Virus record (IMG/VR): IMGVR_UViG_3300037483_000425
Location: 1 to 64,000 of that record
Length of the DNA stretch: 64,000 nucleotides
Origin: a virus
Taxonomy: Duplodnaviria > Caudoviricetes
Reading direction: 5' to 3' (one strand)
Of this stretch, positions 1 through 22,020 are shown piece after piece. Numbering within the stretch: position 1 is the first letter of the stretch; each line of letters begins with the position of its first letter. Both the position numbers and the translations under genes were made by a program. The notes beneath the pieces were generated by a model. It made no database searches. It worked only from the letters and a program-made list of their open reading frames with translations, and was not told the DNA's origin.

Positions 1-68
1 AGCTCATACAGTCTTAACAATTTTTGAACAACCGAGTTATGTAATTTCATAATTACATTGTCCTCCAT
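1..68 (-). CDS. Partial hypothetical protein (5' end; runs off left edge)
   Basis: Manual translation MEDNVIMKLHNSVVQKLLRLYE..., open to the window edge. Confidence 0.4.
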   Translation of the reverse strand, partial: MEDNVIMKLHNSVVQKLLRLYE

Positions 69-125
69 TAGAAAAATATGTTAAATAAAGAATCACTAAC
101 CAAAATTTCTTAGTATAAATTGTCC

Positions 126-572
126 ATGAACTTTAATAAGGGACAACTTGTTCAAGTTGATGATAGATTTGGAATATATCTAGAATTTTTTATCGAAAAA
201 AAGACAAATAGACGAAGACCACCTCAAAAATATTCTGTCGAATATCACAAAATCCTTGTTGGCAAACAAATCGCAAAATGCACATGGAACGAAGAAAAGC
301 GAATATTTAAGAACATTTCTAAGCCTTTTTCGAGCTTTAAGCTGCCCAAAATTAGAAAAGTATCTCCAAGCCTTCTTGCGCGAGACTTGGTTTCAGTTCA
401 ACCTATGAGCCTGTCAGGAAAATTGTCATTTTTGGATTACACATATGGCTCAATAGCCACCAGTTCCTTGTCGAGATCCGCCGGGGGTCCTTTGCTGGCC
501 AGCGGCTCCACTTCCCTTCTTAACTCCGGCTCTTTGGGTCCTTGGATGGGCATTCGCCTTGACCTTCCTTAG
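126..572 (+). CDS. Hypothetical protein: SH3/KOW-like N-terminus plus a gp23-type major capsid protein-like segment
   Basis: ATG at 126; residues LPKIRKVSPSLLARDLVSVQPMSLSGKLSFLDYTYG (342-449) resemble the T4 gp23 VRR..P.LIA.D..GVQPM....F.L...YG segment; last ~40 aa are antisense overlap. Confidence 0.6.
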   Translation: MNFNKGQLVQVDDRFGIYLEFFIEKKTNRRRPPQKYSVEYHKILVGKQIAKCTWNEEKRIFKNISKPFSSFKLPKIRKVSPSLLARDLVSVQPMSLSGKLSFLDYTYGSIATSSLSRSAGGPLLASGSTSLLNSGSLGPWMGIRLDLP

Positions 573-725
573 CTCATTATTCGCATCATAAGGATTAAGC
601 GGATTATCATCAATCTCTGGCTCTTCGTCATTATTGAATGGCAAAGAATCTTGAGTTTTCATTACCTTATCAAGATGTTCATGCCATTCAAGCAAATTGC
701 GGATATATTGACGAAGATTATTCAT
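450..725 (-). CDS. Small hypothetical protein with LRxYIRxxLE leader (putative virion internal protein)
   Basis: MNNLRQYIRNLLE N-terminus; TACTTAG motif upstream at 756-762. Confidence 0.65.
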   Translation of the reverse strand: MNNLRQYIRNLLEWHEHLDKVMKTQDSLPFNNDEEPEIDDNPLNPYDANNELRKVKANAHPRTQRAGVKKGSGAAGQQRTPGGSRQGTGGY

Positions 726-1410: not shown

Positions 1411-3645
1411 TCACTCGTTTATATTTTCAAGGGCTTCATCAATTAATCCAAAAATTTCATATAACGACATTTCTTCTTGAGGCTCTTCTCTCTTTTCTCT
1501 TTGAGATGGTTGAACCGTTGGAAGAATCTTTTGTTTTTTGCGTCTTCCTCTCTTTTTAGGCTGCGGAACAGGGGGAGGATTACCTGCCTCAATCATGCCA
1601 GCAAGCTCTCTCATAGCGTTTTCAAAGCGACCCCAAGCTTCCATAGCAGCATCACCCCTTCTATGAGCCATTTTTAGATTATAACGAACGTCAGCAAGCT
1701 GAGCCCTTTCACTTTTTGTCAAAACCTTGGCAATTGATGCGCTGGATTTTCCAAGATATCTTTGCGTAATCGCATTCATGTCTCTAGACATCTGCTTTGG
1801 ATTATAATTCTGCTCTGCCGAATCTGCCAATTCACGAATTCGTTGAACAAATTCATTCCTTCGATCATTCCGATTCAATTGAATCGGTTCTTCTTCCTCT
1901 TGTGGCATCATTCCTTTCAATGATTCTGCCGCTTTCTTTAGCGCAATGAAGACTGGGATATTTCCATCTTTTTGAGCCAGCTGCATAACTTGCTCAATAA
2001 TGTCAAGCTGATCAGAAACTTCATCAGAACCCAAATTGCCAGCTTCTGACATATCTTGAGCAATTCCTGCAACATATGCTTTTTCATCCAATCCAGGATA
2101 TTCGCTTGCCAAATATTCTGCAAATGACTGATAACGACCTAGAATTGGGTTTTTATATTCAATGAGAAGAAATTGGTAATCCCAAATAGACTCATTCAAT
2201 TCCTTGGACTCTTTTAGTTTTTTTCCATAAACGGAATATTTTTCAAAAAACTTTTTATAAACTTCTTCAACTGCATCAACCTCTGCAAGATCTAAAGGAT
2301 CTTCAGACTTTTTCTTCATCTTGATATAAGTTGGATCATTTTCATAAACGGTATAACCCGATGGGTGTCCGTCCATTTCGCTATTTTGAAGATTTGCACG
2401 AGCTAAGCCGCCAGGCTCAGCTGGAACACTTGGATGCATTTGCTCAGGATCTGTCGCTCCGCTATCATATCCGCTTTTTGCCCCCCAATCCTTAAACCGA
2501 ATATAATTCCCATCAGTTTGCCCGGTCCTTCTGTGCGGCCAAGCATCTCCTTCCGTTTTCCCCTCCAAGGCTTCGCTCAAGGAATCCCTCGATTTATTAA
2601 TTGCAGGTTCTACTTTAGTAACATCTCTCCAAAATAGATCCTCTTTATCGGGTCCAGTCCATTGAATAACATTTCCTTCTGGCTCATCAAAAACAACAGT
2701 AATAGTGTGATCATCTGCGGTGACTACTTGTCCTTCAGCTCCAGCAGGGATTTTAACAGGATAATAATCTTTTCCACCTTGTTGACGATAAACTTGTCCA
2801 ACGGATCTCACAAGCATACCCTTATGAATCTGTAAATCATCGTCCATCAATTCTCCAGGCAAATCATTTCCCTCTTTATCAAATTCTCCCATTTCACTTA
2901 GAGACTCTTTGGATGGCTCATTAGCTTTCCAGTTCCATTTAGGATCTTCTGGACCTTCTTGCATATACCATTTGCTCATGGTATCATCTGTATTTTTAAA
3001 TGGATTGACGTGCTCTCTTTGAACTCCATCATAGGCTTCAAATCCTGGCCCAATTCCTCCTTGAACCGCAAATTCTCCATTATTAAGCATTGCTTGAAAT
3101 CTTTCTTCTTTTTCAATCATTTGATCATCAGCGAGAGCCCTAAATCGTTCAACTTCAGAGATTTCTTGAGCTGGACCTTCCCCCAAAGCCCAATCAAGCA
3201 TTTCTCCCTCAAAAACTGGAGGTTCATATCCGGAATCCCGAAATCCCATACCATAACCACCCATGGCGGAGCCACCTGCTGACAAAGCGTCAATGTCAAT
3301 ATCGTTCCATCCGTCACTTCCCCTGTGGCTTTCGTATTGGGCCGTGCCTTTATTGGCCGGTCCCATAACTCCTGCTCCAACCAACCCAAGCATCATCCCT
3401 TCTTCCAATGACGTCATTGGTTTTTCTTTCTCAATCTCTCCTTCCCATGCTTCAGGATCTTTAGTTTCCCCAATTAACTCCAAAAAACGATCTTCATCAG
3501 ACTCTATGACGGAGACATTCTCTGAAAACATCTCTACATCATCTTCTAATTGCTTTTCGTAAGACTCTACGACATGATCTCTTGTGTCGTCAAAATCGTC
3601 TTCTTCAATCAATCCTGCAAGCATTTCAATGCGCTTATTATCCAT
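1411..3645 (-). CDS. Large acidic hypothetical protein (putative internal head/scaffold-like protein)
   Basis: 744 aa, very D/E-rich, several [LIS]xE sites, internal SH3-like stretch (KGMLVRSVG...GAEGQVV...ITVVFD); TACTTAT upstream. Confidence 0.75.
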   Translation of the reverse strand: MDNKRIEMLAGLIEEDDFDDTRDHVVESYEKQLEDDVEMFSENVSVIESDEDRFLELIGETKDPEAWEGEIEKEKPMTSLEEGMMLGLVGAGVMGPANKGTAQYESHRGSDGWNDIDIDALSAGGSAMGGYGMGFRDSGYEPPVFEGEMLDWALGEGPAQEISEVERFRALADDQMIEKEERFQAMLNNGEFAVQGGIGPGFEAYDGVQREHVNPFKNTDDTMSKWYMQEGPEDPKWNWKANEPSKESLSEMGEFDKEGNDLPGELMDDDLQIHKGMLVRSVGQVYRQQGGKDYYPVKIPAGAEGQVVTADDHTITVVFDEPEGNVIQWTGPDKEDLFWRDVTKVEPAINKSRDSLSEALEGKTEGDAWPHRRTGQTDGNYIRFKDWGAKSGYDSGATDPEQMHPSVPAEPGGLARANLQNSEMDGHPSGYTVYENDPTYIKMKKKSEDPLDLAEVDAVEEVYKKFFEKYSVYGKKLKESKELNESIWDYQFLLIEYKNPILGRYQSFAEYLASEYPGLDEKAYVAGIAQDMSEAGNLGSDEVSDQLDIIEQVMQLAQKDGNIPVFIALKKAAESLKGMMPQEEEEPIQLNRNDRRNEFVQRIRELADSAEQNYNPKQMSRDMNAITQRYLGKSSASIAKVLTKSERAQLADVRYNLKMAHRRGDAAMEAWGRFENAMRELAGMIEAGNPPPVPQPKKRGRRKKQKILPTVQPSQREKREEPQEEMSLYEIFGLIDEALENINE

Positions 3646-18575: not shown

Positions 18576-18965
18576 TTAACAAATTTTTGTTGTTTTTGAA
18601 CTAAACACATCATTGAACAAGTGCGTGCTCCATCCTCGTTCGGCCGGTGTTCCCCTATCTGGTGTAACTTTAGTAAAAAACCCCTGAACTTTATCTTGAA
18701 TTCCAAATGTCAAATCAGGATCTGTATTTCCATTAATTGGATCGTAATACTCAAGCGCGCCATCAATGTAAGAAATAATCACATTAGCATCTTCTTCCAT
18801 TTTTACCTTCTTTTTGATGATTTTGTCTAATTCGTCAAAATCTTCTCCTTTGATCTCTTTAATGTGATCTCGGATAATAAGCGCCTGTTCTTTTGTCAAA
18901 GGCTTGTCATTATTTCTAATTTCAAAAAAGCCCTGTAACCAATATAAAAATTCTATATTATTCAT
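18576..18965 (-). CDS. Phage hypothetical protein with two similar helical halves
   Basis: FLYWLQGFFEI...LTKEQALIIRDHI and ISYIDGALEYY repeats. Confidence 0.7.
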   Translation of the reverse strand: MNNIEFLYWLQGFFEIRNNDKPLTKEQALIIRDHIKEIKGEDFDELDKIIKKKVKMEEDANVIISYIDGALEYYDPINGNTDPDLTFGIQDKVQGFFTKVTPDRGTPAERGWSTHLFNDVFSSKTTKIC

Positions 18966-21106
18966 TTTATTGCTCCATGAGGCAATCCTTCATGATAGCC
19001 TGCCATTGTTTGAGTCTTGTACCGAGCATTTCTCCAAAGTTCGTCAAATGTTCTTGCATTGGAATAGCTCATTCCTGATCGAACTCCCGCCACCAACTCC
19101 CCCACAATCTCTTCAACTGTGCCGCCCTCAGACATTCTTGTATGAGTACCCTCGGAAGCGACCTGTCCACGAGCAGGATCCGCCGCAGAACCCTTATAAA
19201 ACTTTTGTCCATTCGTTGCAGGCGCGGCCGACTCTTTGGCCGGCGCAAGCAAACCGCCAATCATCACCATATTCGCTCCTGCAACAATAGATTTAACAAT
19301 ATCTCCAGAGTAACGAATGCCACCATCTGCAACAAGCAATTTCTCTTCAGCATCTGTCCAATATGCACAATCTTGAATGGCAGAAAATTGTGGAACTCCA
19401 TGACCTGTTACAGTCCTTGTTGTGCAGACAGAATTATGTACAATGCAATTGTTGGCAATAAAACTGTGAGTTGGACAATCTACTTCAATGTCCCAAGTTT
19501 CAATTTCGATTTCTTGTTCTTCTCGATCTCTAAATGTTCCATACCAACAATTTTCAGTAAACCTGTTTGATGTATGAATTTTTACATTGTGCGCTTCGTT
19601 TAGATTATCAAAATTGCATTCAAAACCAGCCGACTTAGACGGAGTGTGAGCATTATAGCTTTTTCCGAGAATAGAACAACAAAAATAAAACAATTCTATT
19701 AATTTTTCACTAGTATTTGTGAAGCAATCCCTGCCATTTTTTTCAGTGTGGCCATCAGAATCAATAAGTCCATCATAAATTCCTAAAACATATTCTTTAT
19801 TACAAGCAAGATATTTTTCATTAAGGCTCTTTTTTTCTCTTTTGCCGAAATCTTCCAAAAGCATAGCAAAATATTTATTGTAGATAATAACAGTTTTTAG
19901 ATTAGCACTTTCGTCAATCGACGGATTAAGTCCATATCCCCGAAGAATGCCAATCAATTTATCAACAATTCTGTCTTCATTTTTCCCAAAATACCAACAA
20001 ACAACCCCACTTCCATTTGGTAAAACTCGTGCATTGCCATCCCCTAAAAAAGTCCCAAATACATACCCTAGATTATATGAACATTTGATCCATCTTTTGA
20101 ATTCTTTGTTTCCATTTGTTTTAATTGTGCCTGTAGTAATTTTCGACCTTATTGAAAACTGAGCCAAATCAATCCCAAAATCAAATTGTAAATGATAATC
20201 AATATTTTTTGGCATCAAAGTCAAAGTTTGATTATTTGTATTTTCAATTTGCTCCCATTTATACTTAGAAGATTTTGGTATTGTCTTTGACTGTTGCTCT
20301 AATAATTTAGATATTCCTTTTGACTGGAATGTCTCCCAAGAAACACTTCGACAATCACCAATCCAATATTTGTGATCAGGCGTAACAAAAGTATCTTTAT
20401 GCCAACTTGATGTTTTCTGTTTAACTACTTTCCTAATTCCGCTATTAATTTTATTAAGTACTCTTACTGGTTTTCCATTCTTATTAATTACAAATTCTCC
20501 AGGATTTATTTTTTCTATATTTTTATATGTACCATTCGCCATAAGAACTTTGGTTCCAGAGGCAAAACAACCAGGACCAACCCCACACTTAATTGCATCT
20601 GCTCCCCACATAATCAAATCATTTGTAGCAGTTCCTGTTGCCACATTTCCTGCCATAATATAAACATCATCGCCCCACTTGTCTCGCATCCACTTGATTG
20701 TCTCTTCCATCTGAATGCTATGACCATGAGCAATGTCAACAATAAACATCCGCGCCCCCGCATTGTAAAGCGCTTCTGCTCTTTCTGGCTCATTAATGCC
20801 AATTGAAACAAAACAATCCCTCGACTCTTCCTCCCCAGGAATAGTGTATGAATATTTTACTCTTCTATATTCAATAACATTTGCTTCAATATCCCAAAAT
20901 CTATGAATGGCCCCAATTCCTCCTGCATCCCACATAGCATTCGCCATTCCTGAATCCGTTACCGTCTTCATGTTGGCCGAAATAATAGGGTTTGGCCTTT
21001 CATATTTCCATATCTTGACGCTCGTGTTCGCTTCAGAACGAGATCTTAATGTGGTCATTTGCGGGATAAGAATAATATCATCAAATGTGTATGATAATGT
21101 TGTCAT
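18962..21106 (-). CDS. IMP dehydrogenase / GMP reductase family enzyme (no CBS domains), intein-interrupted
   Basis: TFDDIILIP, SANMKTVT, VDIAHGHS, GNVAT, KCGVGPG|intein|SVCTTR, ADGGIR, VMIGGLLA. Confidence 0.92.
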   Translation of the reverse strand: MTTLSYTFDDIILIPQMTTLRSRSEANTSVKIWKYERPNPIISANMKTVTDSGMANAMWDAGGIGAIHRFWDIEANVIEYRRVKYSYTIPGEEESRDCFVSIGINEPERAEALYNAGARMFIVDIAHGHSIQMEETIKWMRDKWGDDVYIMAGNVATGTATNDLIMWGADAIKCGVGPGCFASGTKVLMANGTYKNIEKINPGEFVINKNGKPVRVLNKINSGIRKVVKQKTSSWHKDTFVTPDHKYWIGDCRSVSWETFQSKGISKLLEQQSKTIPKSSKYKWEQIENTNNQTLTLMPKNIDYHLQFDFGIDLAQFSIRSKITTGTIKTNGNKEFKRWIKCSYNLGYVFGTFLGDGNARVLPNGSGVVCWYFGKNEDRIVDKLIGILRGYGLNPSIDESANLKTVIIYNKYFAMLLEDFGKREKKSLNEKYLACNKEYVLGIYDGLIDSDGHTEKNGRDCFTNTSEKLIELFYFCCSILGKSYNAHTPSKSAGFECNFDNLNEAHNVKIHTSNRFTENCWYGTFRDREEQEIEIETWDIEVDCPTHSFIANNCIVHNSVCTTRTVTGHGVPQFSAIQDCAYWTDAEEKLLVADGGIRYSGDIVKSIVAGANMVMIGGLLAPAKESAAPATNGQKFYKGSAADPARGQVASEGTHTRMSEGGTVEEIVGELVAGVRSGMSYSNARTFDELWRNARYKTQTMAGYHEGLPHGAIK
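19433..20569 (-). mobile_element. Intein (379 aa) with LAGLIDADG homing endonuclease
   Basis: Starts CFASGTKVLMANG, block B TPDHKYW, GTFLGDG and GLIDSDG motifs, ends HSFIANNCIVHN followed by Ser. Confidence 0.93.
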
Positions 21107-22020
21107 TATATTTTCCACCATTGAATGGTTTTTTCAAGACCATCCCAAAAACGAACCTTTGGCTCATATCCATACTTGGATAATGCTGATATATCAGCTT
21201 GCGTATGCTTCACATCGCCTGGTCTTTCTGGGGCGTGCTCTATATTAAGATCTCCAAACCTCTTTTTAAGAAATTCTAATATTTCGTTATTTGAGGTTCG
21301 ATCACCACAAGCAACATTGAAACAATCACCTTTGAAGATCGTATCAGCTGTTGCAACAATAATGTTAGCATCCACAACATTATCTACATAGCAAAGATCT
21401 CGACTTTGTTCTCCATCCCCATCGGAACGAAGAGGCGTTCCGTGCTTAATCGCATGACACCAAGCAGCAACCGCTGTGCTATAAGGAGAATCACCATATT
21501 GATAGGGTCCAAATACATTGAAATAACGTAAGCAAACAATATCCAATCCGTACAGCCTATGAAACATTTTGGCAAAATCTTCAATCGTTTTCTTTTGCAA
21601 TGCATAAGGAGAAACGGGATTCAAAGGTTCCGTTTCTTTTGTTGGCATATTCTTTGCTCCACCATAAACAGAAGAACTTGAAGCAAAGACAAACCGATTC
21701 ACGTTACCACGTGCCGCCTCCATTAGCTTGATCGTTTTTGCAATATTTGTTTCGGTTGTTTCATAAGGTTGCTCAACAGATAATGAAACCCTTGGCATGG
21801 CCGCTTGGTGAAAAATAACATCGAATTCACTATTGGAGACCTTATCCAAAATGATTGGATCAGCAAAATCCATGGTGAAATTTTCTTTTCCCATGAAAAA
21901 CTCATTGTGACCAGAGGATAGATCATCCACAACGGTAACATCTAACCCCATATTCATTAATCTTTCGGTTAAGTTGCTGCCAATAAAACCGGCTCCGCCT
22001 GTGACTAATATTTTCTTCAT
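21106..22020 (-). CDS. NAD-dependent NDP-sugar epimerase/dehydratase (extended SDR)
   Basis: ILVTGGAGFIG, ASSSSVYG, YALQK, RYFNVFGP. Confidence 0.93.
   Translation of the reverse strand: MKKILVTGGAGFIGSNLTERLMNMGLDVTVVDDLSSGHNEFFMGKENFTMDFADPIILDKVSNSEFDVIFHQAAMPRVSLSVEQPYETTETNIAKTIKLMEAARGNVNRFVFASSSSVYGGAKNMPTKETEPLNPVSPYALQKKTIEDFAKMFHRLYGLDIVCLRYFNVFGPYQYGDSPYSTAVAAWCHAIKHGTPLRSDGDGEQSRDLCYVDNVVDANIIVATADTIFKGDCFNVACGDRTSNNEILEFLKKRFGDLNIEHAPERPGDVKHTQADISALSKYGYEPKVRFWDGLEKTIQWWKI

What the first reader, a model, noticed from the sequence alone, without database searches (positions are those of the whole stretch)
120..572. Small + strand ORF carries a stand-alone major-capsid-protein (gp23-like) segment
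Seen: after an SH3-like N-terminus the protein reads LPKIRKVSPSLLARDLVSVQPMSLSGKLSFLDYTYG (nt 342-449). The similarity stops where the convergent gene's stop lies (450), and the rest is antisense overlap. Known: T4 gp23-family capsids have a conserved VRR..P.LIA.D..GVQPM..PTG.VF.L...YG segment. Inference: an exapted capsid fragment on a non-structural protein. It could be a decoy or poison subunit against competing phages, an assembly regulator, or a capsid-docking module; a recombination relic is the alternative.
Basis: partly seen in the sequence, partly recalled or inferred. Interest (0 to 1): 0.7.

Follow-up and report, generated by a model that had tools for sequence, protein, structure and literature searches.

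The report
Stand-alone capsid "Gol-segment" mini-protein gene
A small gene of a large uncultured T4-like phage carries only the most conserved 45-residue stretch of a T4-type head-shell protein (the stretch that in T4 binds the host factor EF-Tu), and it belongs to a widespread family of such mini-proteins that I found described in no paper and whose job is unknown.

Summary
The + strand ORF 126..572 (148 aa) has, at nt 321-449, the N-terminal conserved segment of gp23-type major capsid proteins (MCP). It is 53% identical to the phage's own MCP, which lies 71 kb away on the same contig, and it maps to T4 gp23 residues about 96-131, the Gol region. It is not a lone relic. About 38 of the 65 database hits I read are small proteins with non-MCP N-termini, this segment, and an end soon after the "YG". 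Five were checked and are whole genes inside contigs, in non-structural neighbourhoods of big phages.

The ORF's segment fits this family better than it fits MCPs (72.7 v 58.9 bits). Locally the gene sits in a stretch 347 nt longer than the 52-nt spacer a related phage has between the same two genes. Its last 40 codons are read-through, antisense to a conserved neighbour. Its N-terminal 65 residues are an orphan; "SH3-like" is not confirmed for this ORF.

Most likely it is a real gene whose segment is a portable binding peptide for a partner that the MCP also binds (in T4: EF-Tu, GroEL routing). The partner and purpose are untested. This scan has met the same family on other genomes before.

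The parts
126..572 (+). Whole ORF, 148 aa from ATG 126 (TTG 120 is an alternative start), stop at 570-572
   Evidence: The same protein is called on Logan contig L007. Its own frame is the best of six by codon usage for 126-449 (+0.114 per codon, above every off-frame window, but below 99% of true in-frame windows).
126..320 (+). Orphan N-terminal region (residues 1-65); fold unknown
   Evidence: No family hit, no relative in 1.8 billion representatives, no match to the core-subfamily N-domain HMM, AlphaFold2 pLDDT about 45-55, Atlas scores under 0.9.
321..449 (+). MCP-derived 'Gol-region' segment (KPFSSFKLPKIRKVSPSLLARDLVSVQPMSLSGKLSFLDYTYG). It equals T4 gp23 about 96-131: the end of the N-arm plus the first P-domain strands.
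   Evidence: Domain limits of T4 gp23 come from PMC9546572.
450..569 (+). Read-through tail (40 codons, S/G/L-rich), antisense to gene B; probably not a selected part of the protein
   Evidence: Gene B's tail is conserved in relative P0069. Codon score is -0.28 in the ORF frame against +0.15 in B's frame. Tail similarity to MCPs is not above shuffles.
450..725 (-). Convergent gene B (91 aa, P0068), with a G/R-rich C-terminal tail that overlaps the ORF by 123 nt
51..449 (.). 399-nt spacer between gene B's stop and gene C's start. The related phage L088 has only 52 nt here, so the ORF's upstream region and first 108 codons lie in a 347-nt indel.
3..50 (-). Start of gene C (MKLHNSVVQKLLRLYE...), cut by the contig end; homologue of L088 537..737
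   Evidence: 9/16 identical, E 5e-6

Best explanation
The ORF is an intact member of a family of small phage proteins that carry, outside any capsid protein, the most conserved peptide of T4-type major capsid proteins. Members combine this roughly 45-residue segment with unrelated N- or C-terminal parts and stop where the MCP's I-domain linker would begin.

Shown here:
- The homology and the mapping onto T4 gp23.
- The existence of the family and the completeness of five member genes.
- The better fit of this ORF's segment to the family than to MCPs.
- The local indel and the read-through tail.
- The segment is predicted to be unstructured on its own, in this ORF and in a core-subfamily member.

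Inferred: the segment keeps nearly every residue that MCPs conserve although the rest of the HK97 fold is absent. The constraint therefore most likely comes from a partner that binds this peptide, not from packing inside the MCP fold. The only documented partners of this peptide are those of T4 gp23: EF-Tu domains II/III (the Gol peptide) and routing to GroEL.

My best guess is that the mini-protein binds the partner(s) of the MCP's N-terminal segment in trans. It would then act as a competitor or decoy, either tuning MCP handling or masking/pre-empting a host factor that reads this hard-to-mutate capsid epitope. The variable fused part would give each member its particular effect. In this phage the fused part is a 65-residue orphan region.
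For: Homology.
Family: of the 65 hits I read from a search of 1.8 billion representatives, about 38 are 58-257-aa proteins with non-MCP N-termini plus the segment and a median of about 15 residues after it.
Complete genes inside contigs, among small ORFs and nucleotide-metabolism or auxiliary genes: P0012/L091, P0025/L092, P0028/L093 (406,873-nt contig, seen on 20 contigs), P0011/L095, P0070/L096.
A cultured jumbo phage (Sinorhizobium phage Phosso) has an MCP-type match plus a second, stand-alone match.
The ORF segment scores 72.7 bits against the family HMM and 58.9 bits against the MCP HMM.
Coding signal in the ORF's own frame.
The identical sequence is present in runs of three other studies.
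The segment is disordered in AlphaFold2 models, while the N-domain of the core subfamily folds confidently as a small beta-barrel.
Literature: the Gol peptide binds EF-Tu and is the most conserved gp23 region (PMC3014915); the gp23 N-terminus targets fusions to GroEL (PMC3012670); the segment ends where I-domain linker 1 starts (PMC9546572).
Against: - No close homologue of this ORF exists (only itself at E below 1e-10), so selection on this copy cannot be measured.
- Its codon usage is poorer than 99% of windows of the phage's other genes, and its GC is 32.8% against 38.3%.
- It has no obvious Shine-Dalgarno (only 29 of 69 genes have one).
- It has lost one residue (the Pro of 'LPSG') in the segment, and it has no stop of its own before running into gene B.
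- Family members were found through the segment, so its conservation among them is partly by ascertainment.
- No partner was demonstrated.
- Some members carry Tat-like leaders (P0007), which fits a cytoplasmic EF-Tu or GroEL partner poorly.
Confidence: 0.55

Rival explanations
1. Non-functional relic. A piece of the 5' part of some T4-type MCP gene, or of a mini-gene, was inserted by illegitimate recombination between genes B and C. It stays open by chance and does nothing.
For: The region is a 347-nt indel relative to the related phage L088. The ORF has no stop of its own and reads through antisense sequence. Codon usage and GC are atypical. It is a singleton. There is a one-residue deletion in the segment.
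Against: 148 codons are open in AT-rich DNA, with a clear preference for its own frame. Nearly all family-conserved residues are retained, and the segment fits the mini-protein family better than MCPs. The N-terminal 65 residues are not MCP propeptide, so it is not simply a cut-off MCP gene. Many intact family members exist elsewhere.
Confidence: 0.2
2. Capsid-assembly factor or poison subunit. The segment docks onto MCP subunits, of this phage or of a competitor, in place of a neighbour's N-arm or first strand. It would regulate, cap or poison shell assembly, or anchor the protein to the capsid.
For: In T4 the N-terminal arm and N-fist make intra- and inter-capsomer contacts after expansion (PMC9546572). 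Here the gene lies next to genes whose N-termini resemble head-internal-protein targeting signals (the comparison with T4 is from memory).
Against: Family members elsewhere lie among non-structural genes. Residues about 106-131 of T4 gp23 are an integral, always-ordered part of the subunit's own fold, so an assembled MCP has no free site for them. Fusions to Tat-like leaders or basic tails are hard to fit.
Confidence: 0.15
3. Assembly artefact. The first roughly 450 nt of the contig come from another phage's MCP-type gene and were joined in by mistake.
For: The ORF lies 120 nt from the contig end. Both the IMG/VR and the Logan assembly stop at the same base.
Against: A conservative Logan contig of 5,552 nt runs through the junction. 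Gene C at the far left is the syntenic neighbour of gene B in the related phage, so both flanks belong to this phage. An identical piece covering 47-197 occurs in another study's run.
Confidence: 0.03

Closest known systems
Gol region of T4 gp23 (Gol / Lit / EF-Tu exclusion system of prophage e14)
   Same: The segment aligns with T4 gp23 residues about 96-131, which overlap the 29-residue Gol peptide. That peptide binds EF-Tu domains II/III and is the most conserved part of gp23 (PMC3014915).
   Different: Here the peptide is not part of a capsid protein but of a 148-aa protein with an unrelated N-terminus. EF-Tu binding and any relation to a Lit-like protease are untested.
T4-type major capsid protein gp23 / vertex protein gp24 (Pfam PF07068, HK97 fold; PDB 5VF3, 6UZC, 7VS5)
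   Same: About 45 residues are homologous and colinear with the N-terminal conserved block, including the phage's own MCP.
   Different: It lacks the propeptide ('LLENQ...LLRE'), the I-domain, P-domain and A-domain. It covers only profile positions 10-45 of 376 and scores below the Pfam cut-off. It cannot form an HK97 fold.
GroEL-targeting N-terminus of T4 gp23 (Snyder & Tarkowski 2005, as cited in PMC3012670)
   Same: It is the same part of the capsid protein, and that part is known to act as a transferable module when fused to other proteins.
   Different: That module was defined with engineered fusions in E. coli. Here natural genes carry it, and no chaperonin link was shown (one family member lies 5 kb from a phage Cpn60 gene, which is weak).
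PHROG 12830 ('major head protein', 128-position profile)
   Same: It is the best PHROG hit of the ORF (E 0.0017), matching profile positions 93-121 of 128. That is a short family whose C-terminal end is this segment.
   Different: The hit is weak, and the PHROG label 'major head protein' is an annotation by similarity. Proteins of that size cannot be capsid shell proteins.

Membership tests
Stand-alone Gol-segment mini-proteins (undescribed family, defined here by alignment A1) | Conserved segment F-x-F-P-x-V-R-R-V-x-P-x-L-I-A-x-x-L-V-S-V-Q-P-M-S-x-P-S-G-x-x-F-Y-L-D-Y-x-Y-G | tested here: met
   72.7 bits and E 7e-25 against the HMM of 42 members, built without the ORF. Q-P-M is invariant. One residue (the Pro of LPSG) is deleted.
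Stand-alone Gol-segment mini-proteins (undescribed family, defined here by alignment A1) | Small complete gene without the MCP propeptide and without the rest of the HK97 fold | tested here: met
   148 aa. The N-terminal 68 residues do not match MCP N-termini above shuffles, and the MCP profile match is limited to residues 69-119.
Stand-alone Gol-segment mini-proteins (undescribed family, defined here by alignment A1) | Protein ends soon after the 'YG' (median about 15 residues in the family) | tested here: inconclusive
   40 more codons follow, but they are read-through antisense to gene B. Family tails range from 1 to 80 residues.
Stand-alone Gol-segment mini-proteins (undescribed family, defined here by alignment A1) | Segment closer to the family than to true MCPs | tested here: met
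   +13.8 bits in favour of the family HMM. In two-fold cross-validation 83% of members and 100% of MCPs score higher on their own class.
Core subfamily with beta-barrel N-domain (PGDxVxH...GxGxVVAV...VxVLWS) | Homologous N-terminal small beta-barrel domain | tested here: not met
   hmmsearch of the ORF's N-terminus against the 17-member N-domain profile gives a score of about 0 bits. AlphaFold2 gives no confident fold for residues 1-60 of the ORF. The subfamily's own N-domain folds at pLDDT about 90.
T4-type major capsid protein (PF07068 Gp23) | Full-length HK97-fold profile match above the curated cut-off | tested here: not met
   17.6 bits against a cut-off of 24.4, covering profile positions 10-45 of 376 only. 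The phage's true MCP scores 209 bits.
Functional Gol peptide (EF-Tu binder, Lit activator) | Sequence equivalence to the T4 gp23 Gol region | tested here: met
   The family profile aligns to T4 gp23 95-138 at E 7e-9.
Functional Gol peptide (EF-Tu binder, Lit activator) | Binds EF-Tu domains II/III and enables cleavage by a Lit-type protease | not testable with these tools
   This needs biochemistry. The host is unknown.

The most novel reading that the evidence does not exclude
The mini-proteins are phage counter-defence decoys. Each presents the capsid epitope that host abortive-infection sensors (Lit-like proteases acting through EF-Tu, or other MCP readers) have evolved to recognise because the phage cannot mutate it. 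The fused variable part (beta-barrel, basic tail, export leader, antitoxin-like tail) then blocks, mislocalises or neutralises the sensor. The family would be the first natural 'capsid-epitope mimic' class of anti-defence proteins. It would also finally explain why the Gol region is so conserved and so often sensed.
Probability: 0.2. Interest if true: 0.85.

Novelty: new variant of a known kind. Interest (0 to 1): 0.62.

Why it matters
The Gol region of gp23 has been a puzzle since the 1980s. It is the most conserved stretch of T4-type capsid proteins, it binds EF-Tu, it directs proteins to GroEL and it trips a host suicide protease, yet its normal role is unknown. Natural genes that carry only this stretch, fused to many different partners in many large phages, show that the peptide works as an independent module. 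They also provide small, tractable proteins for finding its partner, including one in a cultured phage (Sinorhizobium phage Phosso). If they prove to be decoys or EF-Tu/chaperonin modulators, this would be a new class of phage-host interaction proteins. It would also correct the 'major head protein' labels that such ORFs now receive.

Tried and rejected
- Complex prediction of E. coli EF-Tu with ORF residues 60-112 gave 'no answer' (score 0.00, controls not run). This is neither for nor against binding.
- No RNA holder was listed among the sequencing runs.
- Read laying showed only identical low-depth contig pieces in three other studies. There were no variants, so no population test of selection, and no independent contig bridges position 450 by 31 nt or more on both sides.
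- I first suspected that the ORF tail (113-150) and residues 49-68 also descend from MCP ('TSLLNSGSLG' v 'TSLYGGGKVG'; 'IAKCTWNEEKRIF' v 'MARLLENQAKELL'). Shuffle tests did not support this (12-16 and 29-36 of 200 shuffles reach the score), and the tail is antisense to a conserved gene, so I dropped it.
- A T4-type late promoter reading of TATAAAT at 114-120 was dropped. TATAAATA occurs only 2-3 times per strand in 76.7 kb, and the sigma-70 scan shows nothing convincing upstream of the ORF.
- No flanking repeats mark the indel.
- blastn of the first 8 kb against cultured phages found no match. The neighbouring 225-aa protein has no relatives in IMG/VR by pattern search.
- The ESM Atlas gave nothing at 0.9 or above.
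- Fold search of the core-subfamily model gave only weak small-beta-barrel matches (best Z 4.9 to the chaperone insert domain of FKBP26/SlyD, ribosomal and translation-factor barrels, SH3 at Z 3.3; Foldseek found nothing at E of 0.001 or better). These are not informative about function.
- The word-indexed profile search returned few proteins (12), so the family's size is not measured.

Full report
**What is there.** The window is the first 64 kb of a 76,685-nt IMG/VR contig that CheckV rates about 25% complete, so the phage is probably around 300 kb. Almost all genes run on the minus strand. They include a class II ribonucleotide reductase, DnaB helicase, a RecA/UvsX-like protein, 5'-3' exonuclease, a DNA polymerase part, a baseplate hub and sugar epimerases. 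The finding's ORF is on the + strand: TTG 120 or, more likely, ATG 126, to the stop at 570-572. A Logan assembly of run SRR12684493 calls the same 148-aa protein.

**Is the capsid similarity real?** Yes.
- Pfam Gp23 matches residues 76-110 at profile positions 10-45 of 376 (E 0.0027, below the gathering score).
- The phage's own MCP lies on the same contig at 71879..73756 on the minus strand (625 aa, Gp23 E 1.6e-63). It is 23/43 identical to ORF residues 70-111 (E 3e-11).
- A profile of 69 MCP N-termini matches ORF residues 69-119 at E 6.9e-16. The match is colinear: ORF residue 69 falls on profile position 70.
- A profile of the mini-protein family described below hits solved T4 gp23 structures (5vf3, 6uzc, 7vs5, 8gmo) at E 7e-9, on precursor residues 95-138.

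In T4, residues 66-105 are the N-terminal arm and N-fist, and residues 132-160 are I-domain linker 1, the E-loop equivalent (PMC9546572). The segment therefore comprises the end of the N-arm plus the first P-domain strands, and it stops where the linker begins. It overlaps the 29-residue Gol peptide. That peptide binds EF-Tu domains II/III, lets the e14 Lit protease cleave EF-Tu, and is the most conserved part of gp23 (PMC3014915). The gp23 N-terminus also targets fused proteins to GroEL (PMC3012670).

**The ends of the ORF.** The convergent gene B (453..725, 91 aa, stop at 450-452) has a homologue on a 1,024-nt Logan contig, L088. It is 61% identical, and the identity includes the G/R-rich C-terminal tail that the ORF overlaps. 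Codon usage in 450-569 favours B's frame (+0.15 per codon) over the ORF's (-0.28). A weak resemblance of the ORF tail to MCPs is not above shuffles. The last 40 codons are therefore read-through and not a conserved part of the protein.

In L088 the B homologue is followed after 52 nt by a homologue of gene C, which in the window starts at 50 on the minus strand (9/16 identical). In the window that spacer is 399 nt (51-449). The ORF's upstream region and its first 108 codons thus lie in a 347-nt indel between two conserved neighbours. No repeats flank it.

ORF 126-449 has a clear coding signal in its own frame. It is the best of six frames and lies above every off-frame window, but below 99% of true in-frame windows of this phage. 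Its GC is 32.8% against 38.3% for the genome. That pattern fits a gene acquired from elsewhere or expressed differently.

**The decisive turn: a family.** The ORF as a whole is a singleton. Only itself is found at E below 1e-10 among 1.8 billion representatives and 5.8 billion clusters. I read the sequences of 65 of the 66 weaker hits, and they are of two kinds.
- **Cut-off true MCP N-termini.** About two dozen hits carry the propeptide motif 'LLENQ..LLRE' and 'VRRVFGGLIAN'.
- **Small non-MCP proteins.** About 38 hits are 58-257 aa long. They have non-MCP N-termini, then the segment ('F.FP.VRRV.P.LIA..LVSVQPMS.PSG..FYLDY.YG'), and they end a median of about 15 residues later.

A core subfamily of 17 shares an N-terminal domain ('PGD.V.H...G.G.VVAV...V.VLWS'). 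Others have short basic leaders, basic tails or a Tat-like leader (P0007), or carry the segment first with another domain behind it (P0032). P0011 even keeps a propeptide-like 'LLKW...LIENQ', which hints that the family descends from the 5' part of MCP genes.

Five members that I looked up are complete genes inside contigs, among small ORFs and auxiliary or nucleotide-metabolism genes: L091, L092, L093 (a 406,873-nt contig; the protein is seen on 20 contigs), L095 and L096. The cultured jumbo phage Sinorhizobium phage Phosso has one MCP-type match and a second match in a 228-codon frame whose 5' part is unannotated.

The window ORF's segment scores 72.7 bits against an HMM of 42 family segments and 58.9 bits against 90 MCP segments. 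Two-fold cross-validation separates the two classes for 83% of members and 100% of MCPs. The ORF is a family member by its segment.

Its N-terminal 65 residues match nothing: no Pfam or PHROG family, no hit to the core subfamily's N-domain, no confident fold and no Atlas lead.

**Structure.** With the family alignment, AlphaFold2 gives the ORF a poor model (pLDDT 57). Only residues about 65-90 are confident, with one short helix at 81-88. For core-subfamily member P0012 the N-domain folds confidently (pLDDT about 90) as a five- to six-stranded small beta-barrel. The segment again has low confidence, with the same short helix. Fold searches give only generic small-barrel matches at Z of 4.9 or less. 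A conserved peptide that does not fold on its own is what one expects of a motif that folds on a partner.

**How it most likely works.** The shown facts are listed above. The inference is this: the mini-proteins keep nearly all residues that MCPs conserve although the rest of the HK97 fold is gone. The constraint on those residues is therefore probably an interaction with something other than the MCP's own body. The only partners documented for this peptide are EF-Tu and the GroEL route of T4 gp23.

I therefore read the segment as a portable binding handle for the partner(s) of the MCP's N-terminal segment. On this reading the mini-protein is a trans-acting competitor or decoy, and its fused part sets the outcome. 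In the present phage the gene is intact and probably functional, at about three in four. Its purpose is open. The rivals are:
- a dead recombination relic, about 0.2;
- an assembly regulator or poison subunit that docks on MCP, about 0.15;
- an assembly artefact, about 0.03. Both flanks belong to this phage, and a conservative contig runs through the junction.

**What is known.** I found no paper that describes stand-alone Gol-segment or MCP-fragment proteins. PHROG 12830, a 128-position 'major head protein' family whose end is this segment, shows that such ORFs are currently mislabelled. After reaching the family reading from my own searches, I consulted the scan's earlier notes. Agents have met the same family on at least seven other genomes and reached the same open verdict on function. 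Those notes are not independent evidence, but they agree.

**Limits.**
- No close relative of this ORF is available, so selection on this copy is unmeasured.
- No RNA data were listed.
- The one complex prediction gave no answer.
- Family members were collected through the segment, which inflates its apparent conservation. The whole-length homology within the 17-member core subfamily, where the segment is at least as conserved as the folded N-domain, argues that the conservation is real.

Noticed in passing
window 725, 1404, 6037 (minus-strand starts), 16619 (+); genome 67293 and 70835 (minus): Five or six proteins begin with a shared motif, M(N/K)NL(R/L).Y(I/V)....(L/I).E (for example MNNLRQYIRNLLE, MNNLRKYVSQILKE, MKNLLREYINFLIKE). 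From memory this resembles T4 capsid-targeting sequences cleaved by the prohead protease after L/I-x-E, so these may be head-internal proteins. Gene B, which overlaps the ORF, is one of them.
   Followed up: partly
window 18962-21121 (minus): An IMP dehydrogenase / GMP reductase gene is interrupted by an intein (Hom_end-associated Hint plus LAGLIDADG domains between the two IMPDH halves).
   Followed up: no
window 450-572: The overlap region has 57.7% GC in a 38% GC genome. It encodes the G/R/Q-rich basic tail of gene B, which is conserved in relative P0069.
   Followed up: partly
L088 1-198 compared with window 1411-3645: In the related phage, the homologue of the middle of the 744-aa protein (residues 403-473) ends there and is followed directly by gene B'. 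In the window the protein runs on for 270 more residues, and a 225-aa gene (727-1404) lies between. This indicates module shuffling among these putative head proteins.
   Followed up: no
L090 3896-4576 (Sinorhizobium phage Phosso, PV764938 about 182.17-182.86 kb): A divergent stand-alone copy of the segment ('LPSVKRVMPQIMAHNIVGVSPMAAPKGNIFQMRKRY') lies in an unannotated stretch, in frame with and upstream of annotated CDS XYS97433. The gene start is probably mis-called. This is a cultured-phage handle on the family.
   Followed up: partly
P0007 (81 aa): A family member has a twin-arginine-type leader ('RRRFLGKIAGMVLSATL') in front of the segment. This is odd for a peptide whose known partners are cytoplasmic.
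   Followed up: no
window position 1 (contig left end): The IMG/VR contig and an independent Logan contig of 5,552 nt end within one base of each other. No run laid on the region extends further left. This may be a repeat boundary or a physical genome end.
   Followed up: no
L023 4998-5240 and 6829-7044: One IMG/VR phage has two adjacent MCP-type genes that both carry the segment, probably a gp23/gp24-like pair.
   Followed up: no
L096 15070-16704: A phage-encoded Cpn60 (GroEL-like) gene lies about 5 kb from family member P0070. This is of possible interest given the GroEL-targeting role of the gp23 N-terminus.
   Followed up: no
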